DNA from: Candidatus Saccharimonadota bacterium | GTDB lineage: Bacteria > Pseudomonadota > Gammaproteobacteria > Enterobacterales > Enterobacteriaceae | Assembly (NCBI GenBank): GCA_000217635.1 | Contig: CP001817.1 | Coordinates: 210,001 to 242,000, forward strand | DNA: 32,000 nt | Direction of reading: 5' to 3' | Shown: positions 1 to 32,000 of the stretch, one piece after another | Layout: each line of letters opens with the position of its first letter | How positions within the stretch are numbered: position 1 is the first letter of the stretch | The notes under the pieces: generated by a model | Told to the model about the DNA's origin: nothing | The model's input: the letters and a program-made list of their open reading frames with translations, nothing else | Database searches by the model: none | Position numbers and translations under genes: made by a program

Positions 1-63
1 GAAATTACATTAAATGTATTTATTATTTTTTTATCAACAAAACATATAATTTAGGGTAATCTA

Positions 64-735
64 ATGAATTTTTTTAATGCCGAATCATATATTTATGTTA
101 AATTCTTTATTAGTCTTTTTACAATTATTAATCCAATTGGATTAATTCCGGTTTTTATTTATTTAACGAATTCACAAACAAGTAGTGAAAGGAATTCAAC
201 AAATATCAGAGCTAATTTTACAGCTTTAATTATTTTGCTTTTTTCTTTATTTTATGGTTATCGTATTTTAAATTTTTTTAATATATCTATTGATTCTTTT
301 CGTATTGCAGGTGGTATATTAGTTGCAATGTTTGCATTTTCTATGATGAATGGTACATTATTACAAAATAGAGTACAGATTAAATCTAAAAATGTTTCTT
401 CTAATATCAATAACCAAAGTACATCATATAAAAAAGAAGATATTTCGATTATTCCTTTAGCTATGCCATTTATAGCAGGTCCTGGCGCGATAAGTTCTGT
501 GATTCTTTGGAGAATGCAATATTCTAATTTATATAATTTAATTGGATTTTCTGTTGTAATTTTATTTTTTTCTTTTTTTTGTTGTTTAACATTTAAAATA
601 GCTCCATATATTACTTCAATAGTAGATGATATTTACATTAGAATAATAAATCGTATTATGGGTTTATTATTGTTATCAGTAGCAATAGAATTTATTTTTA
701 ACAGTATTAAAACAATTATATTTAGTTATATTTAG
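64..735 (+). CDS. MarC-family (UPF0056) multi-pass inner-membrane protein
   Basis: 223-aa ORF, hydrophobic throughout. It has the IPLAMPFIAGPGAISS block typical of the MarC/YchE/YhgN family and sits next to lipB. Confidence 0.75.
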   Translation: MNFFNAESYIYVKFFISLFTIINPIGLIPVFIYLTNSQTSSERNSTNIRANFTALIILLFSLFYGYRILNFFNISIDSFRIAGGILVAMFAFSMMNGTLLQNRVQIKSKNVSSNINNQSTSYKKEDISIIPLAMPFIAGPGAISSVILWRMQYSNLYNLIGFSVVILFFSFFCCLTFKIAPYITSIVDDIYIRIINRIMGLLLLSVAIEFIFNSIKTIIFSYI

Positions 736-808
736 ATTTTTTTGTATTTTTTATATATTTAATTTTATAGAATTATATAATTATAATTTTTACAGTTAAA
801 AAATTAAT

Positions 809-1444
809 ATGCATATTATTATTCGAGATTTAGGTTTGTGTAGTTGGTTATCAATTTCGAAAGCTATGAATGATTTTACAAAGATTCGTAATTATTGGAC
901 GTGTGATGAACTATGGTTAACAGAGCATTATCCTGTTTTTACTTATGGTTTATCAGAAAAAAATATAACTTATCATTATATTAACAATATTCCTATATTT
1001 TTATCAAATCGGGGAGGAAAAATAACATATCATGGTCCAGGGCAATTAGTTGTATATATATTATTAAATTTAAAACGTAATAAAATTAAATTTAGATATT
1101 TTATTAATACTATAGAAAATATAGTTATCCAAGTATTACGTTATTTTTATATTTCAGCACATATTAAAAAAATAAACCGGGAGTATATATTAATAACAAA
1201 AAAAATATGTTCTCTTGGTTTACGTATTATTAAAGGTTGTTCCTTACATGGTTTTTCATTAAATGTTAATATGAATTTAATTCCTTTTCAATATATACAT
1301 CCATGTGGAGAAAAAAACATTAAAATGACACAAATTTATCATTATAACAAAAATATTAAAATACATATAATTAAAAAAATTTTAATACAAAAGTTTTGTA
1401 AAAATTTTAAAATTTTAAAATATTGTAAATATTCAAGTCAATAA
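809..1444 (+). CDS. lipB: Octanoyltransferase LipB; the ORF is open but carries an internal compensated double frameshift
   Basis: 211-aa ORF collinear with E. coli LipB (EHYPVFT, RGGKITYHGPGQ, KKICSLGLR, HGFSLNVNMNL). The conserved PGVY block is not in the annotated frame. It is readable in another frame between A-runs 1166-1172 and 1198-1205. Confidence 0.85.
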   Translation: MHIIIRDLGLCSWLSISKAMNDFTKIRNYWTCDELWLTEHYPVFTYGLSEKNITYHYINNIPIFLSNRGGKITYHGPGQLVVYILLNLKRNKIKFRYFINTIENIVIQVLRYFYISAHIKKINREYILITKKICSLGLRIIKGCSLHGFSLNVNMNLIPFQYIHPCGEKNIKMTQIYHYNKNIKIHIIKKILIQKFCKNFKILKYCKYSSQ

Positions 1445-1510
1445 TATTAAATTTTTTAAGTAATTAATATTATTTATAAAATAAAAAATATAATTATAAA
1501 GATAATATAT

Positions 1511-2456
1511 ATGAAAAATAATAAAATAAATAAAAAAAAATCTTTAAATATACCAACAAATGATATTACATCAAATATAAATAAAATAGAAAAAAATATA
1601 AAAATATTAAAAAAACCAGACTGGTTACGAGTTCGTTTTCCAGTCATTACAACAAATATCAATAATATAAAATCAATACTACGAAAAAATAAATTATATT
1701 CTGTTTGTGAAGAAGCGCAGTGCCCTAATTTATTTGAATGTTTTAATCGTGGAACAGCAACATTTATGATTTTAGGTTTTATTTGCACTAGAAAGTGTCC
1801 ATTTTGTGCTGTTAAAAAGGGTCGCCCAATTGTTCCAGATTATTATGAACCGCAGAAATTATATAATGTTGTTATGAAATTAAAATTGAAATATGTTGTA
1901 TTAACGTCTGTAACACGAGATGATTTACATGATGGTGGAGCTCAACATTTTTATAATTGTATACGTTTTATTCGTAATATTAAAAATATTAAAATTGAAA
2001 TATTAGTTCCAGATTTTCGTAATAAAACAAAAATTGCTTTAAATATTTTTCAATCTTGTCCTCCGGATGTATTTAATCATAACATTGAAAATGTTCCACG
2101 ACTATATCCTAGTATTCGTCCGGGATCAAATTATCACCATTCATTAAATTTTTTATATACATTTAAAAAATATTGTCCGAATATTCCTACTAAATCTGGA
2201 TTAATGTTAGGTTTAGGAGAACGTCATGACGAAGTGCTTTCCGTTTTAAAAGATTTAAAAAAAATATGGTGTTTCTATAGTTACATTAGGACAATATATG
2301 CAACCTAGCCAAAAACATTTACCTGTTAAAAAATATATTAGCCTTGAAGAATTTTCTGTTTTTAAAGATTATGCATTATCTCTAGGTTTTAGTCATGTAT
2401 TTTGTGGCCCCCTTGTTCGGTCTTCTTATCATGCCGATCAACAAAATTTATCTTAA
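1511..2456 (+). pseudogene. lipA: Lipoyl synthase LipA, frameshifted in an A8 run (may be rescued by slippage, or a homopolymer sequencing error)
   Basis: The 1511-2264 part carries CEEAQCPN and the radical-SAM CTRKCPFC motif. The next frame continues [15 protein letters not shown]...[13 protein letters not shown] to a stop at 2454-2456. Removing one A from 2257-2264 gives about 314 aa collinear with E. coli LipA. Confidence 0.88.
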
Positions 2457-2647
2457 TAAAAACATTTTTTGTATAAATTAAAAAATATTTTTATATATAA
2501 CAGTGATTTTAAAAAATAATATTTATTATAATATCTATATATTATTAATTAATTTTTATAATTTTGATATATATTTGAATATAATATTTTTTAAAAAATA
2601 TCTTTATTTGTTTTATTTTATTTTTAATTATAAATTATTGTTGTATA

Positions 2648-2739
2648 AATTATTAAACTTCTTACGCATCATATATAAAAACACCAATAAAAACTTTTAT
2701 TGGTGTTTTTATATATGATGCGTAAGAAGTTTAATAATT
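2648..2739. repeat. Perfect inverted repeat (45-bp arms, 2-nt centre); candidate bidirectional intrinsic terminator for convergent lipA and sppA
   Basis: Checked base by base: 2648-2692 pairs perfectly with 2695-2739. The inner part reads AAAAACACCAATAAAA-AC-TTTTATTGGTGTTTTT. The right arm overlaps the sppA stop codon (2731-2733) and its last two codons. Confidence 0.9.
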
Positions 2740-4596
2740 GATTTGGTAATTTAAACAAAGCGCTAAATATCTATTATTTTTAATATACTCTTGAATTGAA
2801 TTAACCATATTTATAGGAAAAAATATTGTATTCCACATAATATGTGGTATGTATAATGATAAATTTTCTTTCAATGATTTGTTAATTATATTATATATTT
2901 GATGTATATAATTAATTAAAAAATTATTTGGTTTTTTTAACCATACAATCTCATATTTTTTTAATTGTGTTAATTTTGCTGCTTTTATAATAGCAGAATC
3001 AAAATCTCCTAATTGATCTACTAACCCTATATCTTTTGCAGTTTTCCCTATCCATACTCTTCCTTGAGCTATTTTATTAATTTGTTGAAAAGTTTTATTT
3101 CGCGCTTTAGCTACCAATTTAATAAATTTTTTATATCCCTTGCAAATATTAATTTTCATTACTTTTTTTTCTTCAAGCGTTAAATTATTATATGAATGAA
3201 AATTATTAATAGGGAATGTTTCTGATCCAATGTTGTAAATTCCTAAAGTTGATAATGTTTTTTCAAACGTTTGCAAAACTGAAAAAATTCCAATTGATCC
3301 AGTAACTGTTAGAGGATGCGCTATAAGAAAATTTCCTCCCAGAGCCATCCAATATCCTCCAGAAGCGGTAACATTACCCATTGAAATCACAATTGGCTTG
3401 GTACTATTACGAATGATGAATATTTTTTTTCTAAGCATTTCAGAAATATTCGCATTTCCTCCAGGGCTATTAATTCTTAAAACAATAGCACGAATTTTAG
3501 GATCATTTTTTGCATATTGCATTTGTTCGATAATAGATGATATATTCATTGCTTTAGAATTATGTATATTATTATCGATTGTTCCGTTTGCAATAATAAT
3601 AGCGATTTTTATTAGGTAATTTGGATAATTTTTATTTTTAAAAATATAATTATTAATATCGATTGAATTAAATTTTTTATTTTTTTTATTCATTCCAAAT
3701 TTTTTTATTAAATATTTATTAATATTAAAATAAGTATCAATTTTATCAATTAAGTGATGTTTAAGTGCAATATATGTGATTGAATTTTTATTTTTTTTTA
3801 ATGCATGTATAATTCTATATGATATAGGAAAAATATCTTCTTTCGTTGTTCTTCTGTTTTTTGCAATAGTTTCTAAATATTGTTGCCATATTGTATTCAT
3901 CCAACTTGTATTAATAATTTTATGAAAATTAGAAGGACCATTATGTAAAAACGGTTCAACGGCAGATTTATATTTTCCCACACGAAATACATGTATATGT
4001 ACTTTACATGTATTTAAGAAATCTTTAAAATATAATTGTTTACTAGAAAATCCGTGTAATTTAATTTTTCCGTGTGGTAGCAAAAATATTTTATTTGCAA
4101 AACTAGCTAAATAATATTGAATTTGCGTGTACTGAGATCCGATAGCATAAATACATTTCCCAGATTTTTTAAATTCATTTAATGCTTTTCCGATATAAGA
4201 TAAAATTACTGGGTTGCTAGTAAAATTACTATACATTTTTAATATTAATCCGGTAATTCTTGGATCTTTTTTTGCTTGCCTAATTTTTTTAACGATTTTA
4301 AATACTGAATTTTTGGTATCTTTATTATTTAAAAAATTTAATTGATTACAAGAATTATTTTTTAGATATTGTGTATCTATTGCTTTTTCTTCTAAATTAT
4401 TATTTAATTTAATAATTAAAGCGCTATTATATTTAGGTCGATATAATCTATTTGAATTATTTTTTTTGAATATATCCATAATCCAATGCCGATAATAAAA
4501 AAGATAAACAATACATTTAATAATATTTTCTGTAAAAATATTAAAGATCCAATAAAGATATTTAAATGGTTGTATTATTTTTAAAAAAAATTTCAT
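2731..4596 (-). CDS. sppA: Signal peptide peptidase A (protease IV), S49 family
   Basis: 621-aa ORF, similar in size to E. coli SppA (about 618 aa). It has a duplicated S49 architecture, an N-terminal membrane anchor, and GNVTASGGYWMA and QGRVWIG blocks. Confidence 0.9.
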   Translation of the reverse strand: MKFFLKIIQPFKYLYWIFNIFTENIIKCIVYLFYYRHWIMDIFKKNNSNRLYRPKYNSALIIKLNNNLEEKAIDTQYLKNNSCNQLNFLNNKDTKNSVFKIVKKIRQAKKDPRITGLILKMYSNFTSNPVILSYIGKALNEFKKSGKCIYAIGSQYTQIQYYLASFANKIFLLPHGKIKLHGFSSKQLYFKDFLNTCKVHIHVFRVGKYKSAVEPFLHNGPSNFHKIINTSWMNTIWQQYLETIAKNRRTTKEDIFPISYRIIHALKKNKNSITYIALKHHLIDKIDTYFNINKYLIKKFGMNKKNKKFNSIDINNYIFKNKNYPNYLIKIAIIIANGTIDNNIHNSKAMNISSIIEQMQYAKNDPKIRAIVLRINSPGGNANISEMLRKKIFIIRNSTKPIVISMGNVTASGGYWMALGGNFLIAHPLTVTGSIGIFSVLQTFEKTLSTLGIYNIGSETFPINNFHSYNNLTLEEKKVMKINICKGYKKFIKLVAKARNKTFQQINKIAQGRVWIGKTAKDIGLVDQLGDFDSAIIKAAKLTQLKKYEIVWLKKPNNFLINYIHQIYNIINKSLKENLSLYIPHIMWNTIFFPINMVNSIQEYIKNNRYLALCLNYQINY

Positions 4597-6533: not shown

Positions 6534-7349
6534 TTATGAAATTTGTTTGGTTGCATTTTTTAATGGAATTACAATTTTTTTTATTTCTTGTATTAATTGA
6601 ACACTATTCGAAATATTTTTTTCAATACTATTTATAATAAACGAGCCGCAGATTATCCCTCTTACACCATTTTGTAATGATTTTTTATTTGTTCTTTTGT
6701 AAAAATTCCAAATCCTTGTACAATAGGTTTTGAATGATATTTTTTAATTTTTATCGTTTTTTTTTAATGAAAATTTTATTGTAGTTTTTTGTAATCCAGT
6801 AGTACCGGATCTTGATAATAGATATATATATCCTTGACTATATTTTGATATTTTTTTAATTATTTTTGTTTCAGCATCAGGAGGGCAAATAAATACTTGA
6901 GCGATATTATATTTCTTAGAGGTACGTCGAATATCACTAGATTCTTCATAAGGCATATCTGCTATTAATATAGAATCTATTTGTATAGAAGAACATTTAG
7001 CATAAAATTTTGAGATTCCATAAGAAAAAATAATATTCATGTATACTAAAAGTCCAATTGGAATAAACGGATATTTTTTTCTAATAATATGTAACATTAA
7101 AAAACATTTTTTTACTGTCATTTTACTAAAAAAAGAACGTAAATGTGCTTTTTGTATAATAATTCCATCTGCAATAGGATCAGAAAAAGGAATGCCTAAT
7201 TCTAAAGCATCAACACCACTTTGAATAAGTACATCAATAATCTTTAAGGATACATCTATAGATGGGTCACCTAATATTATAAATGGAATAAAACACCCTT
7301 CTTTATTTAATTTTAATTTTTTTAATAAAATTTTATATCGTGATTTCAT
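6534..7349 (-). pseudogene. trpA: Tryptophan synthase alpha chain, two homopolymer frameshifts (one extra base, then one missing) with an intervening stop
   Basis: The N-terminal 201-aa ORF carries EGCFIPFIILGDP, ALELGIPFSDPIADG and YLLSRSGTTG. The middle block TIKIKKYHSKPIVQGFGIFTKEQIK is in a second frame. The C-terminal block KSLQNGVRGIICGSFIINSIEK...stop at 6534-6536 is back in the first frame. With both corrections the protein is 271 aa and collinear with E. coli TrpA. Confidence 0.88.
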
Positions 7350-8558: not shown

Positions 8559-9935
8559 TTAGTTTTTTAATATATATTGTGCTGGAAAATTTTTTATAAT
8601 ATTAAACGCGTGTCTAATTTTTTTAGAATCTTTAATTCCCGGAGAAATTTCTAATCCTGAATTTAAATCTAAGCCACAAAAACCTAAAGTCGATGCTTGA
8701 AATATATTATTTAATTTTAAACCTCCTGCTAACATCATCTTGGAAACATTATTTTTTTTTAATAATATTCCAATCAAATTTTTTCCGGTACCTCCATTTT
8801 TATGGTCTATTAAATAACAATTTATATAGTTATATCTTTCTATAGGAAAATTATTAAAAACTGGTAACGCTTTCCAGATCTTTACATTTTTTGGTAGTAA
8901 ACTGCGTAATTTTTTAATATAATCTTGATTTTCTTGTCCATGTAATTGGACTACTGCTAAAGATAATTTTATTACTCTGGATAAAATATATTTCATACAA
9001 GAATTATAAAAAACTCCAACATATTTTAATTTAACTTGACTAGTTATTTTTTTGCAATCGCGTAGTTTGATATATCGAGGAGATTTATAAAAAAATAAAC
9101 CTCCATAGATGCTACCGCTTTTTTTTACAATAAATGCGTCTTCTACTCTTGTTAATCCGCATACCTTGTTCTTTCCATATATCATGCTACATACAGTCTT
9201 TTTAAGAGAATTGGATTTCATTAAATGACTACCTATTAAAAATCCATTAACGTAACGACTTAACATACGAATTTGTTTATATTTATTAATTCCGGATTCA
9301 GAAATAACAATTCGATCTGAAGGAACTAGAGGTGCGATACGACATGTTGTCTTTAAATCTATAGATAAATTTTTTAAATTTCTATTATTAATTCCAATTA
9401 TATCTGCATTAAGTGATAATGCACGATGTAATTCTGATATGTTATGTACTTCTGTAACAATATCGATATTCATTTTTTTTGCTACATTAGACATAATAAC
9501 ATATTGAGAATTACTTAAAATAGACATCATTAATAAAATAGCATCGGCTTGATAATATCTAGCGTAATAAATTTGATATGGATCTATAAAAAAATCTTTA
9601 CATAAGAGAGGTTTATTAGTGCATTGAGATGCTTGTTTTAAATACTTAAATTTACCTTTAAAAAATTTATTTTCTGTCACAATAGATATTGCACTGGCAT
9701 ATTTTTTATAAACTTGGATGATTTTTGGAATATTAAACTTAGTTCTTAATAGTCCTATAGAAGGAGAAGCTTTTTTACATTCTAAAATAAATGCTGGGTT
9801 ATTTTTTGTATTTCTTTTTAAAAATTTTTGATTTTTTATATTGCTATAAAATGATTCTAATGGCTTTTTTAATTTATGTAGTTTTATCCATTCATTTTTA
9901 TAGTGTAATATATTATTTAATGTATTACTATTCAT
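8559..9935 (-). CDS. trpC: Bifunctional indole-3-glycerol-phosphate synthase / phosphoribosylanthranilate isomerase
   Basis: 458-aa ORF with the size and domain order of E. coli TrpC(F). It carries [15 protein letters not shown], then a PRAI half (KVCGLT..., VQLHG). Its start overlaps the trpD stop as TAATG. Confidence 0.93.
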
Positions 9936-10948
9936 TAGTTATTCTTTATAGTAAAGTGTGATAGTTGATGTATAAAGTTATATATTTTACCACTATTAAT
10001 AAATTGAATGATTTTAGACGTATTAGAGATTAAGTCATGTGAATAATTTGTTATTTTTAATAATAATGCTACATTAGCGGCAATTGTATCAACATAATAT
10101 TTTTTACCTAATCCTTTAAATAAATTGATTGTTTCTCTGTAATTTTCTTTTTTTTGTTTTGTAGAATATATAATTCTTTTTTGTTTTTTAAACCAAAAAT
10201 CTTTTGGAGTTAAATTATACTGTTTAATTGTATTATTTTTTACTTCAGCAATTTGAATTTTATCACATAATATTATTTCATCAGCACCTTCGCTATGAAC
10301 AACTATAGCATTATTATATTTTAATTTTTTTAATATTTTAGCAAAGTATAATAATAGTTCTGGTGAATGTACACCGATTATACCATAAGATGGATTAGAA
10401 GGATTAAGTAAAGGACCTAGTATATTAAAAATTGTTTTAGTATTTAAAATTTTACGAACTTTTTCTACTTTTTTAAATATATATAAATATTGATTAGCAG
10501 ATAAAAAACAAATATTAAAAACGTCTAATAATTTTTTAGATCTCTCAGGTGATATAAAAACATTAATATTTAAATGATTTAATAAATCTACAGATCCTAC
10601 AGCACTAGACGAGCTAACATTACAGACTTTTATAATTTTTATCCCATAACAGGCGGCTACAATAGAACTAACAGTTGAAATATTAAAACTGTTTTTTTGA
10701 TCTCCCCCCGTACCTACAATATCAGCATAAATATAATTTAATTTTGGAAATTTTGGGATATATTGCAAGCAAGCATTTCTAGCTCCTATTACTTCCTCAA
10801 TTGTTTCTTTACGTGCCGCCATTATTGCTAGTATAGCGGATAATTGAATATTATTAATTTTTTTATTCATTATGTGATCAAATAAAAAAAACATTCTTCT
10901 TTTTTTTAAAAATTGATTATTATAAATTTTTGTTAAAATTTTTTTCAT
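9935..10948 (-). CDS. trpD: Anthranilate phosphoribosyltransferase (no fused glutamine amidotransferase domain)
   Basis: 337-aa ORF with DIVGTGGDQKNSFNIST and FNILGPLLNP blocks. It is the first gene of the trpDCBA cluster. Confidence 0.9.
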   Translation of the reverse strand: MKKILTKIYNNQFLKKRRMFFLFDHIMNKKINNIQLSAILAIMAARKETIEEVIGARNACLQYIPKFPKLNYIYADIVGTGGDQKNSFNISTVSSIVAACYGIKIIKVCNVSSSSAVGSVDLLNHLNINVFISPERSKKLLDVFNICFLSANQYLYIFKKVEKVRKILNTKTIFNILGPLLNPSNPSYGIIGVHSPELLLYFAKILKKLKYNNAIVVHSEGADEIILCDKIQIAEVKNNTIKQYNLTPKDFWFKKQKRIIYSTKQKKENYRETINLFKGLGKKYYVDTIAANVALLLKITNYSHDLISNTSKIIQFINSGKIYNFIHQLSHFTIKNN

Positions 10949-11174: not shown

Positions 11175-11223
11175 TATATATGAACAATTTTATTATTTTT
11201 TTATTATTTTTTTAGTTTCAATT

Positions 11224-13090: not shown

Positions 13091-13880
13091 TTAAAAAATA
13101 TATTTTTTTAAAACAAATTTTAAAGTTTTTGCGTGTCCTATTAATACATTTTTATTTTGAATATAATTACAACCTCCAAAAAGATCAGTTATTAATGCTC
13201 CTGATTCACGTGCCTGTAATTCCCCAAAAATATTATGATTATATTGATATGTCAGGTTAATATATAAATCTATTTTTCCTGCAGCTAGATATGCTAAATC
13301 TAAACCAGAACACCCAAAATTTCTAATTTGTATATTTTCTTTTAATAATATTTTAGTTATTAACATACATAAATTAATCTTTTTTACATGAATATAGTTA
13401 AAGTAGATTACAAAAATTTTTTTAGCAATATTATTGTATGTTTTACAGCGTATTCTGCGGCCATTTAACTGAGTACCTTTTCCTTTAATAGAAGTAAACA
13501 AATCGTTTTTTATTGGATCATAAATAACTGAGAAATTTATTTCTTGATTATTTATAATACAAATAGATAGACAAAAATAAGGGATCTTATGAATAAAATT
13601 TGTTTTTCCATCTAAGGTATGAATAAACCATTTTGTGTTATTATTTTTGTATATATTTTGAATATTATCAAGATTAAAAAATTGTATGATTTGGATATAC
13701 ATTATGTATAATATTATACATAACATTAAATATTTTTTTACATATAATTTTAATAGATTTATAATTACTCTCTATATCAATATTATTATCTTGATTATAA
13801 CTAATTCTATCATAATGTTGCGCGATAAGATCTCCACCTTTTCGAATAGCACGAATAGCAATATTTAATAATGGATTCAT
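13091..13880 (-). pseudogene. suhB: SuhB (inositol monophosphatase family / rrn antitermination factor), frameshifted in a T6 run, with catalytic residues substituted
   Basis: ORF 13674-13880 (MNPLLNIAIRAIRKGG...YPNHTIF) and ORF 13091-13726 (NLDNIQ...WFIHTLDGKTNF...GCSGLDLAYLAAGKID) together cover E. coli SuhB. Removing one base from 13676-13681 joins them into 262 aa. Confidence 0.85.
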
Positions 13881-15299: not shown

Positions 15300-16600
15300 A
15301 TGAAAAAAAAATATCAATCTATTCGAGGTATGCATGATTTTCTCCCTGAAGATACAATATACTTGCAAATAATAGAAAAAAAATAATAAAAATTTTAAAA
15401 AGTTATACATTTCAAGAAATTCGATTTCCTATTATAGAAAATTCTGAAATTTTTAAAAAAAGTATTGGTTATGACACTGATGTAATGTCTAAAGAAATGT
15501 ATAGCTTTTATGATCGTAATAAAAAAAAAATTTCTTTACGACCAGAAGGGACGGTTAGTTGTATTCGAGCATGTATACAGCATCATATTTTTAATAAATC
15601 ATTATTTCAAAAATTATGGTATTATGGTCCAATGTTTCGTTATGAACGTCCACAAAAAGGACGGTTTCGACAATTTTATCAATTAGGAATAGAAATATTT
15701 GGAACGTCTAATCCGATTTCAGATTTCGATATTATTTTATTAACAATTAAAATTTGGAATAGTTTAGGGATATTAAAAGATTTAACTTTAGAAATTAATT
15801 CTATTGGTTCAATTGCGGTTCGAAATAGTTATTCTATTGATTTACAAAAATTTTGTAAAAAATATTTAAATAAGTACCATTTAGATGGTATTAATGAATC
15901 AATTATAAAAAATCCAATTCGTTTATTAGATAGCAAAGATCCAAATATTAAATTAATGATGCTACATGCCCCGAAATTAAAAAATTATTTAGAAATATCT
16001 TCTATATTAAGATTTAAAAAATTACGTAGTTACTTAGATCAAAAAAATATTAGTTATATTATTAATGATAGATTAGTTCGTGGATTAGATTATTATAATG
16101 ATACAGTATTTGAATGGAAATCCCCTAAACTAGGAACGCAAAATACAATTTGTGCAGGCGGTCGTTATGATTTATTAGTTAAAAATTTAGGGGGTCCAAA
16201 TAATTCTGCTATAGGTTGCGCAATAGGTATTGACAGGTTATTTTTATTAAAAAATACATTTCAAAAAAAATTAGAAAATTATAAGGATTATACGGATATA
16301 CATATTATTTTTGTAGATAAATTATATGCTATATTTGCTTTGGATATAGCTGAAAGATTAAATTTTATTTGGCCACAATTAAAAATTTATACTAACATAA
16401 CTCAATTTAATTTATCTAATCAAATAAAATATGCAATTCAAAATCATACAAAATTTTTATTAATTTTAGATTCATATTTTTTAGGTTTAAATAAAATGAT
16501 CGTGAAAAATATTTCTAAAAAAAACAATATCAAAAATATTTTTATAGAATTTTTCAAAATCCTTGTATTTTTTATAATTTTATATAATTATTTTTATTAA
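15300..16600 (+). pseudogene. hisS: Histidine--tRNA ligase, frameshifted in an A8 run near the 5' end (essential gene; slippage rescue or sequencing error is likely)
   Basis: The ATG at 15300 (AAGG SD upstream) encodes MKKKYQSIRGMHDFLPEDTIYLQIIEKK, then stops at 15384. The next frame continues IIKILKSYTFQEIRFPIIE... into the 371-aa ORF (LRPEGT, YYGPMFRYERPQKGRFRQFYQLG, AGGRYD). One extra A gives 433 aa collinear with E. coli HisRS. Confidence 0.9.
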
Positions 16601-16659: not shown

Positions 16660-17909
16660 ATGAAGAACCTTGATAATAACTTATACAATGATAAAATTTT
16701 TAAATTGATTAAACAAGAAAATTTGCGTCAAGAAAATTCCATTAACTTAATAGCTTCAGAAAATTATGCAAATTCTATGGTTATGCAAGCACAAGGATCA
16801 TGTTTAACAAATAAATATGCTGAAGGATATATTGGAAATCGTTTTTATAGTGGTTGTCATATTATTGATAAAATTGAAAAAATTGCTATTAATCGAGCAA
16901 AAAAATTATTTCAAGTTGATTATGTAAACGTTCAACCTCATTCCGGGTCTCAAGCAAATTTTTCAATCTTTCAGGCCTTATTAAAGCCTAATGATATTAT
17001 TTTAGGAATGAATTTAATGCACGGAGGACATTTAACGCACGGATCTTCTGTAAATTTTTCAGGTAAAATGTATCGTGCATATAGTTATGGGGTTGATAAT
17101 AAAGGGCAATTAGATTATTCTAATTTAGAATATTTATCTAAAAAATATCGCCCTAAATTGATTATTGGGGGGTTTTCAGCTTATTCAGGGTTATGCGATT
17201 GGAAACGTATGCGTGATATTGCAGATTATATCGGTGCATATTTTGTTGTAGATATTTCACATATAGCCGGTTTAATCGTGACTGGGTTATATCCTAATCC
17301 ATTTGATTATGCACATGTAGTTAGTACGACTACACATAAAACTTTAGGTGGTCCACGTGGAGGTTTAATTTTATCACGACATGGCAATATCGAAATGTAT
17401 AAAAAATTAGATTCTTCCGTATTTCCTGGTAGTCAAGGAGGACCTTTAATGCATGTAATTGCTGCTAAAGCTATTGCTTTTAAAAATGCATTAAATCCAA
17501 ATTTTTTATTATTACAAGAAAAAATTTTAGAATATTCACAAATTATGGTAAAAGTTTTTATTGATAGAAATTTTTTAGTAGTATCCGGGAATACATATAA
17601 CCATTTATTTTTATTAGATTTATCAAATAAAAATATAACAGGTAAAGAAGCGAGTGAACTTTTGTCTTCTGTTAATATTATTGTCAATAAAAATACTATT
17701 CCTTATGATACTAAAAGTCCTTTTATTACATCCGGAATTCGTATAGGTACACCTTGTTTGGCATATCGAGGATTCAAAAAAATAATATTATTAGTATATC
17801 TTATTGGATATGTGATATTTTAGATGCTCCTAATAATTTAGATATGCGAAATGTTATTAAAGAAAAAGTTTTAAAAATGTGTTCTCAGTATCCTATTTAT
17901 AAAAATTAA
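16660..17909 (+). pseudogene. glyA: Serine hydroxymethyltransferase, C-terminal frameshift in an A7 run
   Basis: The 387-aa ORF has the PLP-lysine block [13 protein letters not shown]. After RGFKK the annotated frame gives a non-homologous tail. The other frame gives [19 protein letters not shown]...CSQYPIYKN with a stop at 17907-17909, matching the E. coli C-terminus [10 protein letters not shown]...ARYPVYA. Confidence 0.92.
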
Positions 17910-22413: not shown

Positions 22414-22988
22414 TTAATAAGTAGTATTTAGTTTTTTTAAAAAAATATATGAAAATAGACTATATCGTATAATATTTTTTAAATTAATTTCTGATAAAAT
22501 TAATTTTACCCATTGTGCGACTCGTGTATTAGTTAAATTAGACTGTCTATCTTCATCAATCGGAAGTCCAAAAAAGTGTGTTTTATTCGCTTGAGCTTTT
22601 GAAGATTCAAAATGATATTCATGAATCGGCCATTTTCCAATAAAATTAGCGTGTTTTTTTTTAAAAAAATTATACATAATACCAAGAGCATCACAAAAAT
22701 ATTCAGAGTAATCTTCTTGATCACCACAACCAAATAAACCAATAATTTTTTTATTAAAATTTATATTTTTTAACATAGGTAATGATTCAGACCAATCACA
22801 TTGTAGTTCACCATAGTACCACGTTGGTATTCCTAATAATAAAATTTTAAAATCTTCCATTTTTTTAATTGGGCTATGAGAAATATCAAAAAGACTTGAT
22901 TTTTCTTTTCCAATAATTTTATGTATTAATCTAGAAATTTTTTCGGTGTTTCCTGTATCGCTGCCATAAAAAATTCCAATTTTTTCAT
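22414..22988 (-). pseudogene. fldA: Flavodoxin FldA, frameshifted in the A6 run immediately after the start codon
   Basis: The ORF 22414-22860 starts at [23 protein letters not shown], which is mid-protein. Upstream, [40 protein letters not shown] (the FMN phosphate loop) is in that same frame. The ATG at 22986-22988 is out of frame by one base. One added A gives 191 aa collinear with E. coli FldA. Confidence 0.88.
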
Positions 22989-23502: not shown

Positions 23503-24251
23503 ATGAATAATTTACTTCTTGAAAAAATTATTAATAAAAAATTAAAAAATAAACATACTTTACATGATTATATTCCAAATGGATTACAAGTAGAGGGATG
23601 TTCGGAAATTTACAATATTGTAACTGGAGTCACAGCATGTCGAAAATTATTAAAGAAATCATTAGACTATCAAGCTCACGCAATAATTGTACATCATGGA
23701 TATTTTTGGAAAAATGAAAATCCAAAAATTATTGGTATGAAACGCAATCGATTAAAAATTCTTTTAACCAATGATATTAATCTTTACAGTTGGCATTTAC
23801 CTTTAGATATACATCCTGAACTCGGAAATAATGTTCTATTAGGAAATGCTTTGAATATTTCTATACAAGGTTATATTACTCCGCTAGTATTATGGGGGTA
23901 TTTTAAAAAAAAAATTATTAGTTAGTGAATTAAAAAAAAATAAAAAACGATTTTTCATAGAAAACCATTTCATTATGGAAATAAAACGAAAATATATTAC
24001 GCGAGTTGCATGGTGTACTGGTCGTGGGCAAAATTTTATAACAGAAGCTTTAAATTTTAATATAGATGCTTATATAACAGGCGAAGTTTCTGAAGAAACT
24101 ATTCATATTGCTGAAGAAAATAACATTCATTTTTTTTTCTTTAGGTCATCATGCTACTGAAAGATCAGGAATATATCAGTTAGGTCAGTGGTTATCTCAA
24201 CAAAATTATAATTTAAATATTAAATTTATTGATATTGATAATCCTATTTAA
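23503..24251 (+). pseudogene. ybgI: Nif3-family dinuclear-metal protein YbgI (GTP cyclohydrolase 1 type 2 homolog), two homopolymer frameshifts
   Basis: There are three collinear pieces: 23503-23925 (PNGLQVEG, VHHGYFW, WHLPLDIHPELGNN), 23975-24160 (RVAWCTGRGQNF, AYITGEVSE), and a tail GHHATERSGI...IDIDNPI with a stop at 24249-24251. The breaks are in the A10 run 23905-23914 and the T9 run 24130-24138. The corrected length is 248 aa (E. coli 247). Confidence 0.86.
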
Positions 24252-24364: not shown

Positions 24365-27190
24365 ATGAAACATAAAAAAAAAAATTTTCCTACTTTAAAA
24401 AATGATTGGTTATATAGTGAAAATCAAGTTTTTTTAAAAAATATATATCAACGTTTTTTAAGAAACCCCAAAAAAATTGATTCTATATGGTATAAAATAT
24501 TTAAAAATATTGATAATAAAAAAGATCTTATTACTTATGATAATAAAGATATTGGTAATAGTATAATAAATAAAAAAAAGAAAAACGATCAAAATTTAAA
24601 AAAAAATATATTTAATAATAATACTATATCAATACGTGAACGATTTTTAAATTTAATACGTTCTTTTAGAAAATTAGGTCATTATTCTGCTCATTTAGAT
24701 CCATTAAATCTTGCGATAAAAAAAAATATTATGGAATTATCGTTAGATTACTATAATTTTTCAAAAAATGAACTTAAAGAATTGGTAAATAAAGATTTAT
24801 TTCCCTACAAAATACATTTGAAATCATATTATGATATATATATTCTATTAAAAAAAACATATTGTAGTTCTATAGGTTTTGAATTTATGCATTTAAATAA
24901 AATAAATGAAAAAATATGGTTACAAAAATATATTGAAAAAAAAATTTTCTCTTTATACGGCATCAGAAAAAACAAAAAAAATATTATAAAAGGATTAATA
25001 CAATCTGAAACATTTGAAAGCTTTATTCATACTAAATTTCCAGGAACTAAAAGATTTTCTTTAGAAGGTTGCGATGTATTAATTCCTATGTTAAAAGAAA
25101 TTATTCAATATGGAATATTGAATAAAACTAAAAAAATATTTTTCGGAATGGCTCACCGAGGAAGATTAAATGTAATGTTTAATATTTTTAAATGTAATAT
25201 TCCTCAAATGTATCAAAATTATTTTAGTAATAATGATCAATCACATTATACTGGTGATGTAAAATATCATTTAGGTGCTAAAATAACAATTAAAAAAAAC
25301 TTTCATAAAATTGATATAGTATTATTAGATAATCCATCTCATTTAGAAATTATTACTCCCATTGTATTAGGACAATGTAAATCATTTTTAGATTCTACAA
25401 AAACAGAGAGTGATTTATCAAATAATATAATTCCTATTATTATTCATGGAGATGCTGCATTTACAGGACAAGGTGTTATACAAGAAACGTTAAATATGTC
25501 ACAAGTTCCAGGATATTGTGTTTTTGGTAGTATACATATTATTATTAATAATCAAATAGGATTTACTACTTCTAAAAAAAAATATTTACAGTCTAGTACA
25601 TATTGTACCGATATTGCTAAAATGATTGATTCGCCAATATTTCATGTCAATGCAGATCAACCAGAATCTGTAATTTTTATTATTAAACTTGCTTTAAAGT
25701 TTCGATTTTTATTTAAAAAAGATGTATTCATCGATTTAGTTTGTTATAGACGGTTAGGTCATAATGAAGCTGATGATCCTTCAATAACACAACCACTTTT
25801 ATATAAAACAATTAAAAATCATAAAAAAGTATGTGATATTTATTTAAATAAAATAAATAAATTTAACAATAAATACACCAAAAAAACTCAAAAATATTAT
25901 GAATTATATAAAATATATTTACATCACAATTTAAAAAATAATATAAATAAAAAACAAATTGTTAATCTGTACAATAATAAAATTAAAAAAAATCAAATCA
26001 TTATTGACAAAATAAAAAATTTCTCTTTTTCTAATTTAATTAAAAAAATGCTACATATTTTAACTCCCCCAAAAAATTTTTTATTACATTATCAGGTCAA
26101 AAAAATCTTTGATAATCGTTTAAAAATGATCGAAGGAAATAGTTTATGGGATTGGGGATCTGCAGAGATTTTATCTTATGCGGCATTAATAATAAAAGGT
26201 ATCACTTGTAGATTATCAGGGGAAGACGTAAGACGAGGTACATTTTCACATAGACACGCTGCAGTTTATTGTCAAAATACAGGTAAGACATATATCCCAT
26301 TAAAAAACATTTTTTCAACTCAAAATAACTTTCATATATGGGATTCAGTATTATCTGAAGAAGCTACTTTAGCATTTGAATATGGTTATTCAATTTCTAA
26401 AAATTTTTCTTTAAATATCTGGGAAGCACAATTTGGAGATTTTGTTAATGGAGGGCAGGTTATAATTGATCAATTTATTGTTTCTGGTCAACAAAAATGG
26501 GGGCATAATTCATCTATAGTATTGATGTTACCACACGGATATGAAGGACAAGGACCTGAACATTCTTCAGCAAGAATTGAAAGATTTTTACAACTTTGTG
26601 CTCAAAAAAACATGCGAGTATGTATACCTACAACTCCAGCTCAGCTATATCATTTAATACAAAAACAAGGTACTACAATATTAATTAAGAAACCTTTAAT
26701 TATTTTTACTCCAAAATCATTATTAAGAAACTCCAAAACATTTTCTACATTAAAAGAATTATCTCATGGAACCTTTCAAAAGGTATTAATACAGAAAAAA
26801 AATATTTCATGTAATACAATAAAAAAAATTATTTTTTGTTCAGGAAAAATTTACTATGATTTATTAAAATATTATCAAAAAAACAATTTAAGCAATATAT
26901 TAATAATGCGTTTAGAACAATTATATCCGTTTCCAACAAAATCTATTAAAAAAGTTATCCATCAATTTTGTTTTATAGAAAACTGTATTTGGTGTCAAGA
27001 AGAACCAAAAAATCAAGGGGCTTGGGTATTTTTTTATTTTAATTTTAAAAAATATATATCTAATTTTTTTAAAAATGTTCAATTACAGTATATTGGAAGA
27101 CCAAAATGGGCTTCTACTGCTGAAGGTAATTTATCTTCACACAAAATAGAACAACACAATATTATTAAAAAAGCTTGTACACCTTGTTAA
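24365..27190 (+). CDS. sucA: 2-oxoglutarate dehydrogenase E1 component
   Basis: 941-aa ORF (E. coli 933 aa) with HGDAAFTGQGVIQETLN, CYRRLGHNEADDP and HGYEGQGPEHSSARIERFLQL. Confidence 0.96.
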   Translation: MKHKKKNFPTLKNDWLYSENQVFLKNIYQRFLRNPKKIDSIWYKIFKNIDNKKDLITYDNKDIGNSIINKKKKNDQNLKKNIFNNNTISIRERFLNLIRSFRKLGHYSAHLDPLNLAIKKNIMELSLDYYNFSKNELKELVNKDLFPYKIHLKSYYDIYILLKKTYCSSIGFEFMHLNKINEKIWLQKYIEKKIFSLYGIRKNKKNIIKGLIQSETFESFIHTKFPGTKRFSLEGCDVLIPMLKEIIQYGILNKTKKIFFGMAHRGRLNVMFNIFKCNIPQMYQNYFSNNDQSHYTGDVKYHLGAKITIKKNFHKIDIVLLDNPSHLEIITPIVLGQCKSFLDSTKTESDLSNNIIPIIIHGDAAFTGQGVIQETLNMSQVPGYCVFGSIHIIINNQIGFTTSKKKYLQSSTYCTDIAKMIDSPIFHVNADQPESVIFIIKLALKFRFLFKKDVFIDLVCYRRLGHNEADDPSITQPLLYKTIKNHKKVCDIYLNKINKFNNKYTKKTQKYYELYKIYLHHNLKNNINKKQIVNLYNNKIKKNQIIIDKIKNFSFSNLIKKMLHILTPPKNFLLHYQVKKIFDNRLKMIEGNSLWDWGSAEILSYAALIIKGITCRLSGEDVRRGTFSHRHAAVYCQNTGKTYIPLKNIFSTQNNFHIWDSVLSEEATLAFEYGYSISKNFSLNIWEAQFGDFVNGGQVIIDQFIVSGQQKWGHNSSIVLMLPHGYEGQGPEHSSARIERFLQLCAQKNMRVCIPTTPAQLYHLIQKQGTTILIKKPLIIFTPKSLLRNSKTFSTLKELSHGTFQKVLIQKKNISCNTIKKIIFCSGKIYYDLLKYYQKNNLSNILIMRLEQLYPFPTKSIKKVIHQFCFIENCIWCQEEPKNQGAWVFFYFNFKKYISNFFKNVQLQYIGRPKWASTAEGNLSSHKIEQHNIIKKACTPC

Positions 27191-30550: not shown

Positions 30551-30572
30551 TTTTTTATTTTAAACAATATAA

Positions 30573-30597
30573 TAAGTGCCGGGTACCCCGGCGCTTA
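30573..30597. terminator. GC-rich hairpin (11-bp stem with one G-U pair, 3-nt loop) between convergent pfkA and tpiA
   Basis: taagtgccggg (30573-30583) pairs with cccggcgctta (30587-30597). It starts 23 nt after the pfkA stop. On the minus strand it is followed by UUAUAUUGUUU. It is the only strongly GC-rich non-coding element I noticed in the window. Confidence 0.5.
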
Positions 30598-30729
30598 AAT
30601 CAATATTTTATTAATAAAATTAATTATGCATATAAAAAAATGATTAATATCATTTCTTATATAATAATATTTATAAATATAAAATAATTAATTTATTTTT
30701 TAATAATAAGAAAATTTATTAAAAATATT

Positions 30730-31506
30730 TTATTTATTTATTATTTTTATAATTTTTTTAAATTCTTTTAAAATGAGAGATGCTCCTCCAATTAAAAAAC
30801 CATCAATATCATGTTGATAAATTAATTCTTGAACATTATGCTGAGAAACAGAACCACCGTATTGAATAAAAAAATTTTTAATATTATTATTAGATTTACT
30901 TTTAATATAATTTCGTATAAAACAAGATATATTTTGTACTTCTTTTGGTGATGCAGATTGTCCTGACCCTATTGCCCAAATTGGTTCATATGCAATAATA
31001 GAATTATTAAATGCATTTTTTCCACATAAATCAAATATTAAATCTATTTGTTTTTTGCATATTTCTTTAGTTTTTTTATCATTATGTTCTTGAATTGTTT
31101 CTCCTATACATAATATTGGTATTAAATTTTCTTCTTTTAACATATAAAATTTTTTAGCAACTAATGCATTATTTTCATAATGATTTAAACGTCTTTCGGA
31201 ATGTCCAATAATAACATATTGAATTCCCATATCTTTTAACATGATTGGAGAAATCTCTCCGGTAAACGGTCCTGAAAAATGTACATCAACATTTTGAGAA
31301 CCTAAAAAAAATTTTTTTTGATCAGTAGATAGAATATTTTGAATAAAATTAGCATATAATAAAGGAGGAGCTAATACAACTGTACAAATTTTATAATATT
31401 TTATGAGAAACTGATTTAATGGTTTTAAAATGCGTAAAATAAATTTTTTACTACCATTCAATTTCCAGTTACCGATAATAATTGGTTTAATCATATTTTC
31501 AATCAC
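30730..31506 (-). CDS. tpiA: Triosephosphate isomerase
   Basis: 258-aa ORF with GNWKLNG, IIGHSERR, AYEPIWAIGSG and YGGSV. Confidence 0.94.
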   Translation of the reverse strand: MIENMIKPIIIGNWKLNGSKKFILRILKPLNQFLIKYYKICTVVLAPPLLYANFIQNILSTDQKKFFLGSQNVDVHFSGPFTGEISPIMLKDMGIQYVIIGHSERRLNHYENNALVAKKFYMLKEENLIPILCIGETIQEHNDKKTKEICKKQIDLIFDLCGKNAFNNSIIAYEPIWAIGSGQSASPKEVQNISCFIRNYIKSKSNNNIKNFFIQYGGSVSQHNVQELIYQHDIDGFLIGGASLILKEFKKIIKIINK

Positions 31507-31620
31507 CTATCTTTAGCAATTATCAGAAATTTACAACTTATACTCCAATAATTGCTGAACTATAAAATATTAATATTTTTAATCTAAATATTATTTATAT
31601 CACTTATTTAAGGGTTTTTT

Positions 31621-31908
31621 CTATTTAGAAAAACAATTTGTACGTTCTCTTAATTGTTTTCCGGGTTTAAAATGAGGAACATATTTGCCATGTAAATTAA
31701 CTTTTTCTCCTGTTTTTGGATTTCTACCTACACGCGCGAAACGATAATGTAAAGAAAAACTACCAAATCCTCTAATTTCTATTCGATTTCCCTTTTCTAA
31801 AGAAAAAGACATATATTCTAAAATATCTTTTATAATACGTTCAATAATTTTTACTTGAATATAAGTTTTTTTTTCAGTAATTCGTTCAAATAATTCTGAT
31901 TTATTCAT
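31621..31908 (-). CDS. ihfB: Integration host factor beta subunit
   Basis: 95-aa ORF, nearly collinear with E. coli IHF-beta ([35 protein letters not shown]). Confidence 0.9.
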
Positions 31909-32000
31909 ATATCCTCTAAATAATTTTTATGTATAATAAAACATCATTATTCAGAAATTGTATAATTTTTAAAAATATTTATAATTTATATTATTCAGAA

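What the first reader, a model, noticed from the sequence alone, without database searches (positions are those of the whole stretch)
1..32000. Twelve frame disruptions, each inside an A/T homopolymer, affect 9 of 27 conserved genes
Read directly from the sequence, the disruptions are as follows. lipB: A7 1166-1172 is one short and A8 1198-1205 has one extra. lipA: A8 2257-2264 has one extra. trpA: plus-strand T9 6757-6765 has one extra and T6 6681-6686 is one short. yedA-like: T7 11207-11213 is one short. suhB: plus-strand A6 13676-13681 has one extra. hisS: A8 15376-15383 is one short. glyA: A7 17776-17782 is one short. fldA: plus-strand T6 22980-22985 is one short. ybgI: A10 23905-23914 and T9 24130-24138 each have one extra. 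In each case a 1-nt change in that run restores collinearity with the E. coli ortholog, and corrected lengths are close where I tallied them (yedA-like 309 vs 306, glyA 416 vs 417, ybgI 248 vs 247). Six events are insertions and six are deletions. I saw no disruption outside a homopolymer. hisS, glyA and fldA are single-copy essential functions, so they cannot all be dead. I see three explanations: (i) real lesions tolerated because RNA polymerase slippage on long A/T tracts restores some in-frame mRNA, as reported for Buchnera and Blochmannia (Tamas et al., PNAS 2008, from memory); (ii) homopolymer-length errors from the sequencing platform; (iii) run-length heterogeneity among the many genome copies per cell. 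This density is well above what I recall for published Buchnera genomes, so explanation (ii) must be taken seriously.
Basis: partly seen in the sequence, partly recalled or inferred. Interest (0 to 1): 0.7.

Follow-up and report, generated by a model that had tools for sequence, protein, structure and literature searches.

The report
Homopolymer sequencing errors in Buchnera genome
The twelve frameshifts are really in the sequence, and there are at least nine more, but they are almost certainly base-counting errors in the published Buchnera (Cinara tujafilina) genome rather than broken or specially decoded genes.

Summary
The window is Buchnera aphidicola from Cinara tujafilina (BCt, the 444,925-bp chromosome). 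All 12 reported one-base frame disruptions are at the stated A/T runs, and each stated one-base edit restores a full-length ortholog.

Frameshift-aware alignment to four sister Buchnera found 21 well-supported indels, 2 probable and 1 possible, in 13 of 26 genes. Five genes that look intact (lipB, sppA, trpC, trpD, sucA) hide compensating +1/-1 pairs. Between each pair the conserved sequence, for example PGVY, FDW and DFGL, sits in the "wrong" frame.

- Extra and missing bases are balanced, 11 to 12.
- The hit rate per run rises with run length, from 0.2% at 4 nt to about 15% at 8-10 nt.
- Runs as short as 4-6 nt and essential genes are hit, and ybgI is hit four times.
- The same tests on 45-55 kb of orthologous sister sequence give essentially nothing.
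- At seven sites a sister has the same local sequence with exactly the corrected run length.

This is the signature of flow-based (454-type) homopolymer miscalls. It does not fit real lesions rescued by RNA polymerase slippage. GenBank, UniProt and RefSeq carry the truncated or scrambled proteins as real. No reads were available, so the verdict is an inference, at about 0.9 confidence.

The parts
1166..1172 (+). lipB, A7, one base short. First half of a compensating pair inside the open ORF 809-1444.
   Evidence: The corrected segment reads NKPGVYINN (7/9 identical to sister L032). The deposited frame reads INREYILIT (1/9). HMM score rises from 218.8 to 242.6 bits.
1198..1205 (+). lipB, A8, one base extra. 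Second half of the pair.
2257..2264 (+). lipA, A8, one base extra. It truncates the deposited LipA to 265 aa.
   Evidence: Sister L031 has A7 in the same context. The deposited protein P0121 is 265 aa.
4460..4467 (-). sppA, plus-strand T8 (A8 in the gene), one base short. Half of a hidden pair in the open ORF 2731-4596.
   Evidence: Corrected sppA scores 576.7 against 559.2 bits. Segment identity is 13/23 corrected against 5/23 deposited.
4534..4538 (-). sppA, plus-strand A5 (T5 in the gene), one base extra. T4 at 4526-4529 is an alternative placement.
6681..6686 (-). trpA, plus-strand T6, one base short.
   Evidence: The corrected segment between the trpA pair is 18/24 identical to L033. The deposited frame is 4/24 and contains a stop.
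6757..6765 (-). trpA, plus-strand T9, one base extra. The deposited TrpA is 201 aa.
   Evidence: Corrected TrpA covers model positions 2-256 of 256.
8752..8760 (-). trpC, plus-strand T9, one base extra. Half of a hidden pair in the open ORF 8559-9935.
   Evidence: The pair gains +27 and +31 against the two sisters.
8779..8784 (-). trpC, plus-strand T6, one base short. A3 at 8776-8778 is an alternative. Correction restores GTGKKFDWN (sisters have GTGKTFNWN).
10148..10160 (-). trpD, probable one base short in plus-strand T8 10148-10155 or T4 10157-10160. Half of a hidden pair in the open ORF 9935-10948.
   Evidence: The gain is +30 to +40 over two sisters. The exact run is ambiguous.
10195..10199 (-). 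trpD, probable one base extra in plus-strand A5. Correction restores the conserved DFGL (sisters have NFGL and DFGL).
11207..11213 (+). yedA-like DMT transporter, T7, one base short. It separates the ATG at 11180 from the body. The deposited protein starts at 11224 (294 aa).
   Evidence: The composite N-terminus MNNFIIFLLFF-LVSIMWGTTW matches sister L033 MEKLIIFLLFLLVSIMWGTTW.
13676..13681 (-). suhB, plus-strand A6, one base extra. The deposited protein is 211 aa.
   Evidence: Corrected SuhB covers model positions 1-255 of 267. Only one sister ortholog was available.
15376..15383 (+). hisS, A8, one base short. The deposited HisS is 371 aa.
   Evidence: Sister L036 has the same local sequence with A9.
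16517..16524 (+). hisS, second shift, A8, one base short, near the C-terminus.
   Evidence: The sisters end in YRIFQ(N/S)PCIF. The window has YRIFQNPCIF in another frame.
17776..17782 (+). glyA, A7, one base short. The deposited GlyA is 387 aa.
   Evidence: Sister L036 has TTTAAAAAAAATGAT (A8) in the same context. The corrected protein covers model positions 2-404 of 404.
22980..22985 (-). fldA, plus-strand T6, one base short at codons 2-3. The deposited FldA is 148 aa.
   Evidence: Three sisters read ATGAAAAAAATTGGAATT (A7). The window has A6. The corrected protein covers model positions 1-172 of 174.
23905..23914 (+). ybgI, A10, one base extra. The deposited YbgI is 140 aa.
23942..23955 (+). 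ybgI, one base short in A6 23942-23947 or T5 23951-23955.
   Evidence: Correction restores HRKPFHYGNK (sisters have NRTPFHYGNK). The four-edit protein scores 331.1 bits against 320.4 for the two-edit version.
23983..23992 (+). ybgI, one base extra in A4 23983-23986 or A4 23989-23992.
24130..24138 (+). ybgI, T9, one base extra.
   Evidence: Sisters L034 and L035 have CATTTTTTTTCT (T8) in the same context.
24936..24944 (+). sucA, A9, one base extra. Nearby T3 and T4 runs are alternatives. Half of a hidden pair in the open ORF 24365-27190.
   Evidence: Sister L036 has GAAAAAAAATTTT (A8).
24974..24981 (+). sucA, A8, one base short. Correction restores FSLYTASEKTKK (sister L035 has FYSYKTSEKTKK).
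   Evidence: Sisters L034 and L035 have ACAAAAAAAAATATT (A9).
22475..22480 (-). fldA C-terminus, possible one base short in plus-strand T6. It would end the protein at 176 aa (...SEINLKKYYTI) instead of 191 aa.
   Evidence: The gain appears against only one of four sisters, so this is inconclusive.

Best explanation
The disruptions are errors in the deposited consensus sequence of the Buchnera aphidicola (Cinara tujafilina) chromosome. The number of bases in A/T homopolymers was over- or under-called by one. This is the typical failure of flow-based pyrosequencing on a genome that is 78% A+T. In the living bacterium these genes are most likely intact and read in the ordinary way, with no special decoding.

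Shown here: the indels exist, they sit in homopolymers, they are balanced in sign, and their frequency rises with run length. They also hit genes regardless of essentiality and are absent from sister genomes. One-base edits restore sequence as conserved as the rest of each gene.

Inferred: the cause is the sequencing platform. I recall the genome was sequenced by 454 but could not verify this.
For: 1. Identity. The ORFs as they stand are the deposited BCt proteins, so the window is the public record unaltered.

2. Density. There are 21-23 indels in 26.9 kb of coding sequence, in 13 of 26 genes. The same alignment finds 0 internal shifts in three sister loci and one single-reference pair in a fourth. 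That is 17 events in 26.9 kb against 2 in 45.1 kb (P = 3.9e-6). The run-pair scan finds 5 genes in 19.6 kb of BCt ORFs that are open as deposited, against 0 in 55.3 kb of sister coding sequence (P = 0.0012).

3. Hidden compensating pairs. lipB, sppA, trpA, trpC, trpD and sucA carry them. The segment between the two shifts is as conserved in the unread frame as the rest of the gene (lipB 7/9, trpA 18/24, sppA 13/23). The deposited frame is at noise level. That means no time has passed since the "mutations".

4. Sister context. At seven sites a sister has the same local nucleotides with exactly the corrected run length. These are hisS 15376, glyA, fldA, ybgI 24130, both sucA sites and lipA.

5. 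Error-like profile. There are 11 extra and 12 missing bases. The rate per coding run is 0.2% at 4 nt, 0.9% at 5, 2.7% at 6, 4% at 7, and 14-17% at 8-10.

6. No curation. The depositors called the truncated ORFs as proteins: LipA 265 aa, YbgI 140, GlyA 387, HisS 371, FldA 148.

7. Context from the literature:
- The same laboratory's 2011 Serratia genome was 454-only (PMC3213167).
- 454 was reported as unreliable on poly-A regions of Buchnera and had to be corrected with Illumina or Sanger reads (PMC3890641).
- 454 indel errors concentrate in homopolymers (PMC3116506).
- A re-annotation table lists BCt with more CDS (394 against 369-384) and more of what I read as intergenic DNA (78.5 kb against 47-68 kb) than its listed relatives. 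I inferred the column meanings, because no header was visible. This is as expected from split genes (PMC11193766).
Against: - No reads and no independent assembly of this strain were available. The protein clusters hold only sequences attributable to this record: its GenBank and UniProt entries and WP_ re-annotations identical to them apart from the start.
- The sequencing platform of this record could not be verified, because the genome paper is not held.
- RNA polymerase slippage on poly(A) tracts is real in Buchnera and Blochmannia. A few of the long tracts (A10, T9) could therefore be true lesions.
- The sisters are different species, 57-80% identical at the protein level (whole-gene values), so their intact genes do not prove that BCt's are intact.
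Confidence: 0.9

Rival explanations
1. The lesions are real and are tolerated because RNA polymerase slips on A/T tracts and makes a fraction of in-frame mRNA. This has been shown for some Buchnera and Blochmannia genes.
For: The mechanism exists. The Blochmannia genome paper, citing earlier work, puts full-length transcripts at about 30% of those produced from frameshifted genes (PMC3017870). Annotators of Buchnera routinely treat single poly(A) frameshifts as functional (bioRxiv 10.1101/2022.08.28.505559). The affected genes are otherwise well conserved. A few sites are tracts of 9-10 nt (ybgI A10, three T9, sucA A9).
Against: - At least 15 of the 23 sites are runs of 8 nt or less, and some are only 4-6 nt.
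- Eleven sites carry an extra base and would need a transcript deletion. In Buchnera transcript deletions are rarely in homopolymers, and no frame-restoring transcript error was seen transcriptome-wide (PMC5574713).
- Eight genes need 2-4 independent corrections per transcript. Even at 30% per site, four corrections give under 1%.
- Accepted cases number 4-8 genes per whole Blochmannia genome, and some are conserved between species. Here there are 13 genes in 32 kb, and none is shared with four sisters.
- Slippage cannot explain hidden compensating pairs in which the conserved motif lies in the unread frame.
Confidence: 0.03
2. Run lengths truly vary among the many genome copies per cell or among cells. 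The consensus happened to capture a minority or near-equal broken variant at these sites.
For: Buchnera is highly polyploid and homopolymers are replication-slippage hotspots (established knowledge). Nothing in the sequence alone excludes mixed populations.
Against: It would need broken variants to reach consensus at over 20 sites in 32 kb, including hisS, glyA and fldA. Sister genomes assembled from short reads show none. The length-dependent, sign-balanced profile is what a measurement error predicts. In practice the deposited sequence would still misrepresent the functional genome.
Confidence: 0.04
3. These are true recent pseudogenes: ongoing genome erosion by homopolymer indels.
For: Homopolymer indels are a main route to gene inactivation in endosymbionts (background in PMC3017870). 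BCt has one of the smallest Buchnera genomes (PMC4898801).
Against: The hit genes include essential single-copy functions (hisS, glyA, fldA) and the whole trpDCA pathway, which the literature treats as intact in BCt. Parts downstream of the shifts are as conserved as parts upstream, and no stops or other lesions lie outside the runs. All orthologs are intact in four sisters.
Confidence: 0.01

Closest known systems
Flow-based (Roche 454) homopolymer-length miscalls in A+T-rich endosymbiont assemblies, for example the Buchnera Mp genomes, where 454 indels in poly-A regions had to be corrected with Illumina and Sanger reads (PMC3890641)
   Same: The indels are one base long, confined to homopolymers and of both signs. 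Their rate rises with run length. They are blind to gene function, and they are absent from related genomes made with other chemistry.
   Different: In that study the errors were found and removed before deposition. Here they appear to have stayed in the public record and its protein translations. The platform of this record was not verified here.
Frameshifted genes rescued by transcriptional slippage at poly(A) tracts in Buchnera and Blochmannia (Tamas et al. 2008; Williams and Wernegreen 2010, PMC3017870)
   Same: A one-base indel lies in an A/T tract of an otherwise well-conserved gene in an A+T-rich insect endosymbiont.
   Different: Accepted cases are few (4-8 genes per Blochmannia genome). 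The eleven genes that paper illustrates are otherwise in frame, and some frameshifts are conserved across strains or species. The one tract length given in the text I read is 11 adenines. Here the density is about 60 times higher. Most tracts are 8 nt or less, many genes have 2-4 shifts, and none is shared with a sister.
Genuine gene erosion by homopolymer indels in endosymbionts
   Same: The same mutational hotspot and the same immediate effect on the ORF.
   Different: Eroding genes are dispensable and go on to collect further lesions. Here essential genes are hit and nothing else is wrong with them.

Membership tests
Flow-based sequencing homopolymer miscalls (artefact) | Indels of one base, confined to homopolymer runs | tested here: met
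   All 23 events can be placed in A/T runs at or within a few score points of the unconstrained optimum. At least 18 of 23 are in runs of 6 nt or more, which make up 7.6% of coding bases (P = 1.7e-16).
Flow-based sequencing homopolymer miscalls (artefact) | Both over-calls and under-calls, with a rate that rises with run length | tested here: met
   There are 11 extra and 12 missing bases. The rate per coding run is 0.2% (4 nt), 0.9% (5), 2.7% (6), 4% (7), 15% (8), 17% (9) and 14% (10).
Flow-based sequencing homopolymer miscalls (artefact) | Blind to function: essential genes are hit, genes are hit several times, and chance compensating pairs occur with the true sequence preserved in the unread frame | tested here: met
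   hisS has 2 shifts, ybgI 4, and glyA and fldA 1 each. Compensating pairs occur in lipB, sppA, trpA, trpC, trpD and sucA, with the corrected frame as conserved as the whole gene.
Flow-based sequencing homopolymer miscalls (artefact) | Absent from the same loci sequenced with other chemistry | tested here: inconclusive
   They are absent from four sister Buchnera. No independent data exist here for the same strain.
Flow-based sequencing homopolymer miscalls (artefact) | The record was produced on a flow-based platform without polishing | not testable with these tools
   The genome paper is not held. The same laboratory's 2011 genome was 454-only. My recollection that BCt was sequenced by 454 is unverified.
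Slippage-rescued poly(A) frameshifts (Tamas 2008 type) | The frameshift lies in a long A/T tract (about 9 nt or more) | tested here: not met
   Only 5 of 23 sites are runs of 9 nt or more. Fifteen or more are 8 nt or less, including 4-6 nt.
Slippage-rescued poly(A) frameshifts (Tamas 2008 type) | A single indel in an otherwise intact gene | tested here: not met
   Eight of the 13 genes carry 2-4 indels. Five genes (lipA, yedA, suhB, glyA, fldA) carry one.
Slippage-rescued poly(A) frameshifts (Tamas 2008 type) | The frameshift is conserved among related strains or species | tested here: not met
   All orthologs are intact in the C. confinis and C. kochiana Buchnera and in two unnamed relatives from read-archive assemblies.
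Slippage-rescued poly(A) frameshifts (Tamas 2008 type) | DNA length confirmed, and mRNA shows length heterogeneity at the tract | not testable with these tools
   This needs reads and cDNA.
Eroding pseudogenes | Further lesions or relaxed constraint beyond the first frameshift, in a dispensable function | tested here: not met
   After the one-base edits every gene is a single full-length ORF covering its family model. Essential genes are affected.
Programmed ribosomal frameshifting | A conserved shift site at a fixed position in orthologs (as in prfB and dnaX) | tested here: not met
   No ortholog in the sisters has a shift at any of these positions.

The most novel reading that the evidence does not exclude
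A minority of the disruptions, most plausibly those in the longest tracts (ybgI A10 23905-23914, the T9 runs in trpA, trpC and ybgI, sucA A9), are real in the DNA and are read through by polymerase slippage. A more extreme version is that BCt really carries dozens of homopolymer lesions per 100 kb in essential genes and survives through transcript and genome-copy heterogeneity.
Probability: 0.06. Interest if true: 0.65.

Novelty: not a real feature. Interest (0 to 1): 0.15.

Why it matters
As biology it is ordinary: the genes are most likely intact.

As data quality it matters. At about 0.86 indels per kb of coding sequence, a rough extrapolation gives some 300 errors in this 445-kb reference genome.

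In this window half of the proteins held in GenBank and UniProt are truncated or locally scrambled, and RefSeq carries several of them unchanged. For four other proteins RefSeq works around the breaks with later or non-ATG start codons, without flagging them.

BCt is used as a reference point in studies of gene loss, metabolic complementation and evolutionary rates in Lachninae aphid symbioses. Undetected frame errors inflate divergence estimates. They mimic gene truncation and loss, and they could be mistaken for slippage-dependent genes.

Tried and rejected
- **Look-ups of the window's own proteins.** Exact look-ups in the contig index failed, as did one C. confinis protein. Sister loci had to be reached through homologs.
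- **Independent assembly of the same strain.** None was found. The top hits to corrected LipA and YbgI were the truncated deposited proteins, then relatives at 79% identity or less.
- **Papers not held.** The BCt genome paper and Tamas et al. 2008 are not in the library. Searches for a statement of the platform, or of frameshifts in BCt, found nothing.
- **Low frameshift penalty.** At a penalty of -7 the alignment produces single-reference noise in sister genomes too. I therefore accepted extra events only with support from two or more sisters, a clear motif match, and a clean result in the run-pair control.
- **fldA C-terminus.** A possible extra shift there stayed inconclusive.
- **Over-calls versus under-calls.** A trend for under-calls to sit in longer true runs (mean 8.0 against 6.5 nt) was not significant (P = 0.066). 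It would not separate the hypotheses anyway.
- **RNA genes.** There are no tRNA genes or Rfam matches in the window, so RNA genes could not serve as an independent check.
- **Other mechanisms.** Programmed ribosomal frameshifting and phase variation were considered and rejected. No shift site is conserved, and the targets are housekeeping genes.

Full report
**What the window is.** The sequence has 18-26% G+C. The ORF at 14078-15169 is 100% identical to an NCBI protein of Buchnera aphidicola (Cinara tujafilina), on a 444,925-bp contig. That protein is RlmN, deposited under another name. Ten further ORFs, exactly as they stand in the window, are deposited GenBank and UniProt proteins AEH39760-AEH39779. 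The window is therefore the public BCt chromosome, unaltered.

I count 26 complete genes: marC, lipB, lipA, sppA, a 4HBT thioesterase, yciC, trpA, trpB, trpC, trpD, a yedA-like transporter, rluB, suhB, rlmN, hisS, glyA, mfd, gapA, fldA, ybgI, sucA, sucB, gpmA, pfkA, tpiA and hupA.

**Checking the twelve sites.**
- All twelve runs are present with the stated lengths.
- NCBIfam profiles show the frame breaks independently of any Buchnera relative. LipA matches model positions 6-235 in one frame and 233-292 in another. YbgI matches in three pieces. The corrected proteins match end to end, and corrected LipB gains 24 bits.
- tblastn and a frameshift-aware alignment against orthologs from sister Buchnera put the breaks at the same runs.
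- A search for the best one-base edit at each break puts a run edit at, or within a few score points of, the unconstrained optimum.
- The yedA-like and fldA breaks sit at the very N-terminus. Sister N-termini confirm them: MEKLIIFLLFLLVSIMWGTTW and [17 protein letters not shown].

- *hisS.* The alignment found a second hisS shift at A8 16517-16524. The sisters end in YRIFQNPCIF, which the window encodes in another frame.
- *ybgI.* There are two further shifts, so the gene has four. The stretch HRKPFHYGNK is in yet another frame. The four-edit protein scores 331 bits against 320 for the two-edit version.
- *sppA.* A compensating pair lies inside the apparently intact ORF and is worth +17.5 bits when corrected.
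- *sucA and trpC.* A second pass and a systematic scan of run pairs found compensating pairs in both. Correction restores FSLYTASEKTKK in sucA and GTGKKFDWN in trpC.
- *trpD.* A probable pair restores DFGL.
- *fldA.* A possible extra shift at the C-terminus is inconclusive.

The total is 21 well-supported, 2 probable and 1 possible, in 13 of 26 genes. Eleven sites carry an extra base and twelve a missing one.

**Controls.**
- The same alignment at the same penalty gives no internal shift in the C. confinis locus (14.8 kb), the C. kochiana locus (11.6 kb) or one read-archive relative (9.0 kb). A fourth locus gives one pair, supported by a single reference. That is 17 events in 26.9 kb against 2 in 45.1 kb (P = 3.9e-6).
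- The run-pair scan flags 5 genes in 19.6 kb of BCt ORFs that are open as deposited, and none in 55.3 kb of sister coding sequence (P = 0.0012).
- All sister orthologs are called full-length.

**Why this is an artefact and not biology.**
1. *The compensating pairs.* Between the two shifts, the frame obtained by correction is as conserved as the whole gene: lipB 7/9, trpA 18/24, sppA 13/23, sucA 6/10. The frame as deposited is at noise level, and in trpA and ybgI it contains stop codons. If the shifts were real, the cell would be making scrambled versions of conserved motifs, and the unread frame would have no reason to stay conserved. Six such zero-age pairs in 32 kb is not credible as mutation. 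It is expected if about one long run in seven is miscounted.
2. *Sister context.* At hisS 15376, glyA, fldA, ybgI 24130, both sucA sites and lipA, a sister has the same local nucleotides with exactly the corrected run length.
3. *The profile is that of a measurement error.* The signs are balanced. The rate per coding run rises from 0.2% at 4 nt to 14-17% at 8-10 nt. There is no regard for essentiality.
4. *Slippage cannot cover the cases.*
   - Most runs are 8 nt or less, and some are only 4-6 nt.
   - Half the sites need a transcript deletion. Traverse and Ochman found transcript deletions rarely in homopolymers, and they saw no frame-restoring transcript error in Buchnera (PMC5574713).
   - Eight genes need several corrections per transcript. 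At the roughly 30% full-length fraction that the Blochmannia paper cites from earlier work (PMC3017870), four corrections leave under 1%.
   - Accepted cases number 4-8 genes per whole Blochmannia genome, and some are conserved between species. Here there are 13 genes in 32 kb, none shared with a sister.
5. *No curation by the depositors.* They called whatever ORF remained: LipA 265 aa, YbgI 140, GlyA 387, HisS 371, FldA 148, TrpA 201, SuhB 211. RefSeq later chose downstream or non-ATG starts, for example FldA beginning MGIFYG and SppA beginning inside the scrambled segment.

**Platform.** I recall that this genome was produced by 454 pyrosequencing, but the paper is not held.

Four points are circumstantial:
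- The same group's 2011 Serratia genome was 454-only (PMC3213167).
- In 2014 the same group polished a 454 assembly from this same aphid with HiSeq reads (PMC4122931).
- Another group reported 454 as unreliable on Buchnera poly-A regions (PMC3890641).
- 454 indel errors are known to concentrate in homopolymers, locally exceeding 50% per read (PMC3116506).

A re-annotation table also lists BCt with more CDS and more of what I read as intergenic DNA than its relatives, as split genes would give (PMC11193766). No header was visible in that passage, so I inferred the column meanings.

**What remains open.** No reads or independent assembly of this strain were reachable, so the verdict is an inference from pattern. 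I put it at 0.9. A few long tracts (A10, T9) could be real lesions or heterogeneous in the cell. Mapping the existing HiSeq reads would settle every site.

**Verdict.** This is not a real biological feature. Its value is as a warning about a reference genome and the protein entries derived from it.

Noticed in passing
window 22414-22500 (fldA 3' end, minus strand): Even after the N-terminal correction BCt FldA is 191 aa, against 174-178 aa in four sisters. One more base in the T6 run 22475-22480 would end it at 176 aa with ...SEINLKKYYTI, which resembles sister L034 ...SEISLKKYF. Only one of four sisters supports this.
   Followed up: partly
window 22980-22988, 15485-16600, 13091-13726, 2731-4596 (RefSeq protein variants P0368, P0363, P0365, P0372): RefSeq holds alternative versions of the broken genes that start downstream of the shift, some at non-ATG codons. 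FldA (188 aa) begins MGIFYG, HisS is 389 aa and SuhB 203 aa. SppA (582 aa) starts inside the scrambled segment and loses the N-terminal membrane helix. The annotation pipeline worked around the breaks and did not flag them.
   Followed up: yes
window 17910-18646: A 737-bp spacer lies between glyA and mfd. Two relatives carry pgl here (C. kochiana L028 and the SRR33594963 relative L029), and L029 also carries a BioB-like gene (Radical_SAM + BATS domains). The C. kochiana Pgl protein has no tblastn match anywhere in the window at E <= 1e-3. This fits the published loss of pgl in BCt. C. confinis has a similar gap.
   Followed up: partly
window 2457-2730: The lipA-sppA spacer is about 275 bp and contains a 71-aa GTG ORF (2503-2718). 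The same spacer is about 100 bp in relative L033. I did not examine whether this is spurious or a remnant.
   Followed up: no
L033 16612-17979 (trpC of the relative from SRR33594963): In the control run this sister's trpC gave one compensating shift pair against the C. kochiana ortholog (residues 363-373). It is the only internal event in 45 kb of sister sequence. It rests on a single reference and the run-pair scan did not reproduce it.
   Followed up: partly
whole window: There are no tRNA genes and no Rfam matches at gathering threshold in 32 kb, so no RNA gene was available as a frame-independent check on run lengths.
   Followed up: yes
L032/L034 (SRR21069242), L030 (ERZ27237417): Read-archive and ENA assemblies contain unnamed Buchnera about 76-79% identical at the protein level to BCt. 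That is as close as the C. confinis symbiont and closer than any other named genome seen here. Their hosts were not identified.
   Followed up: no
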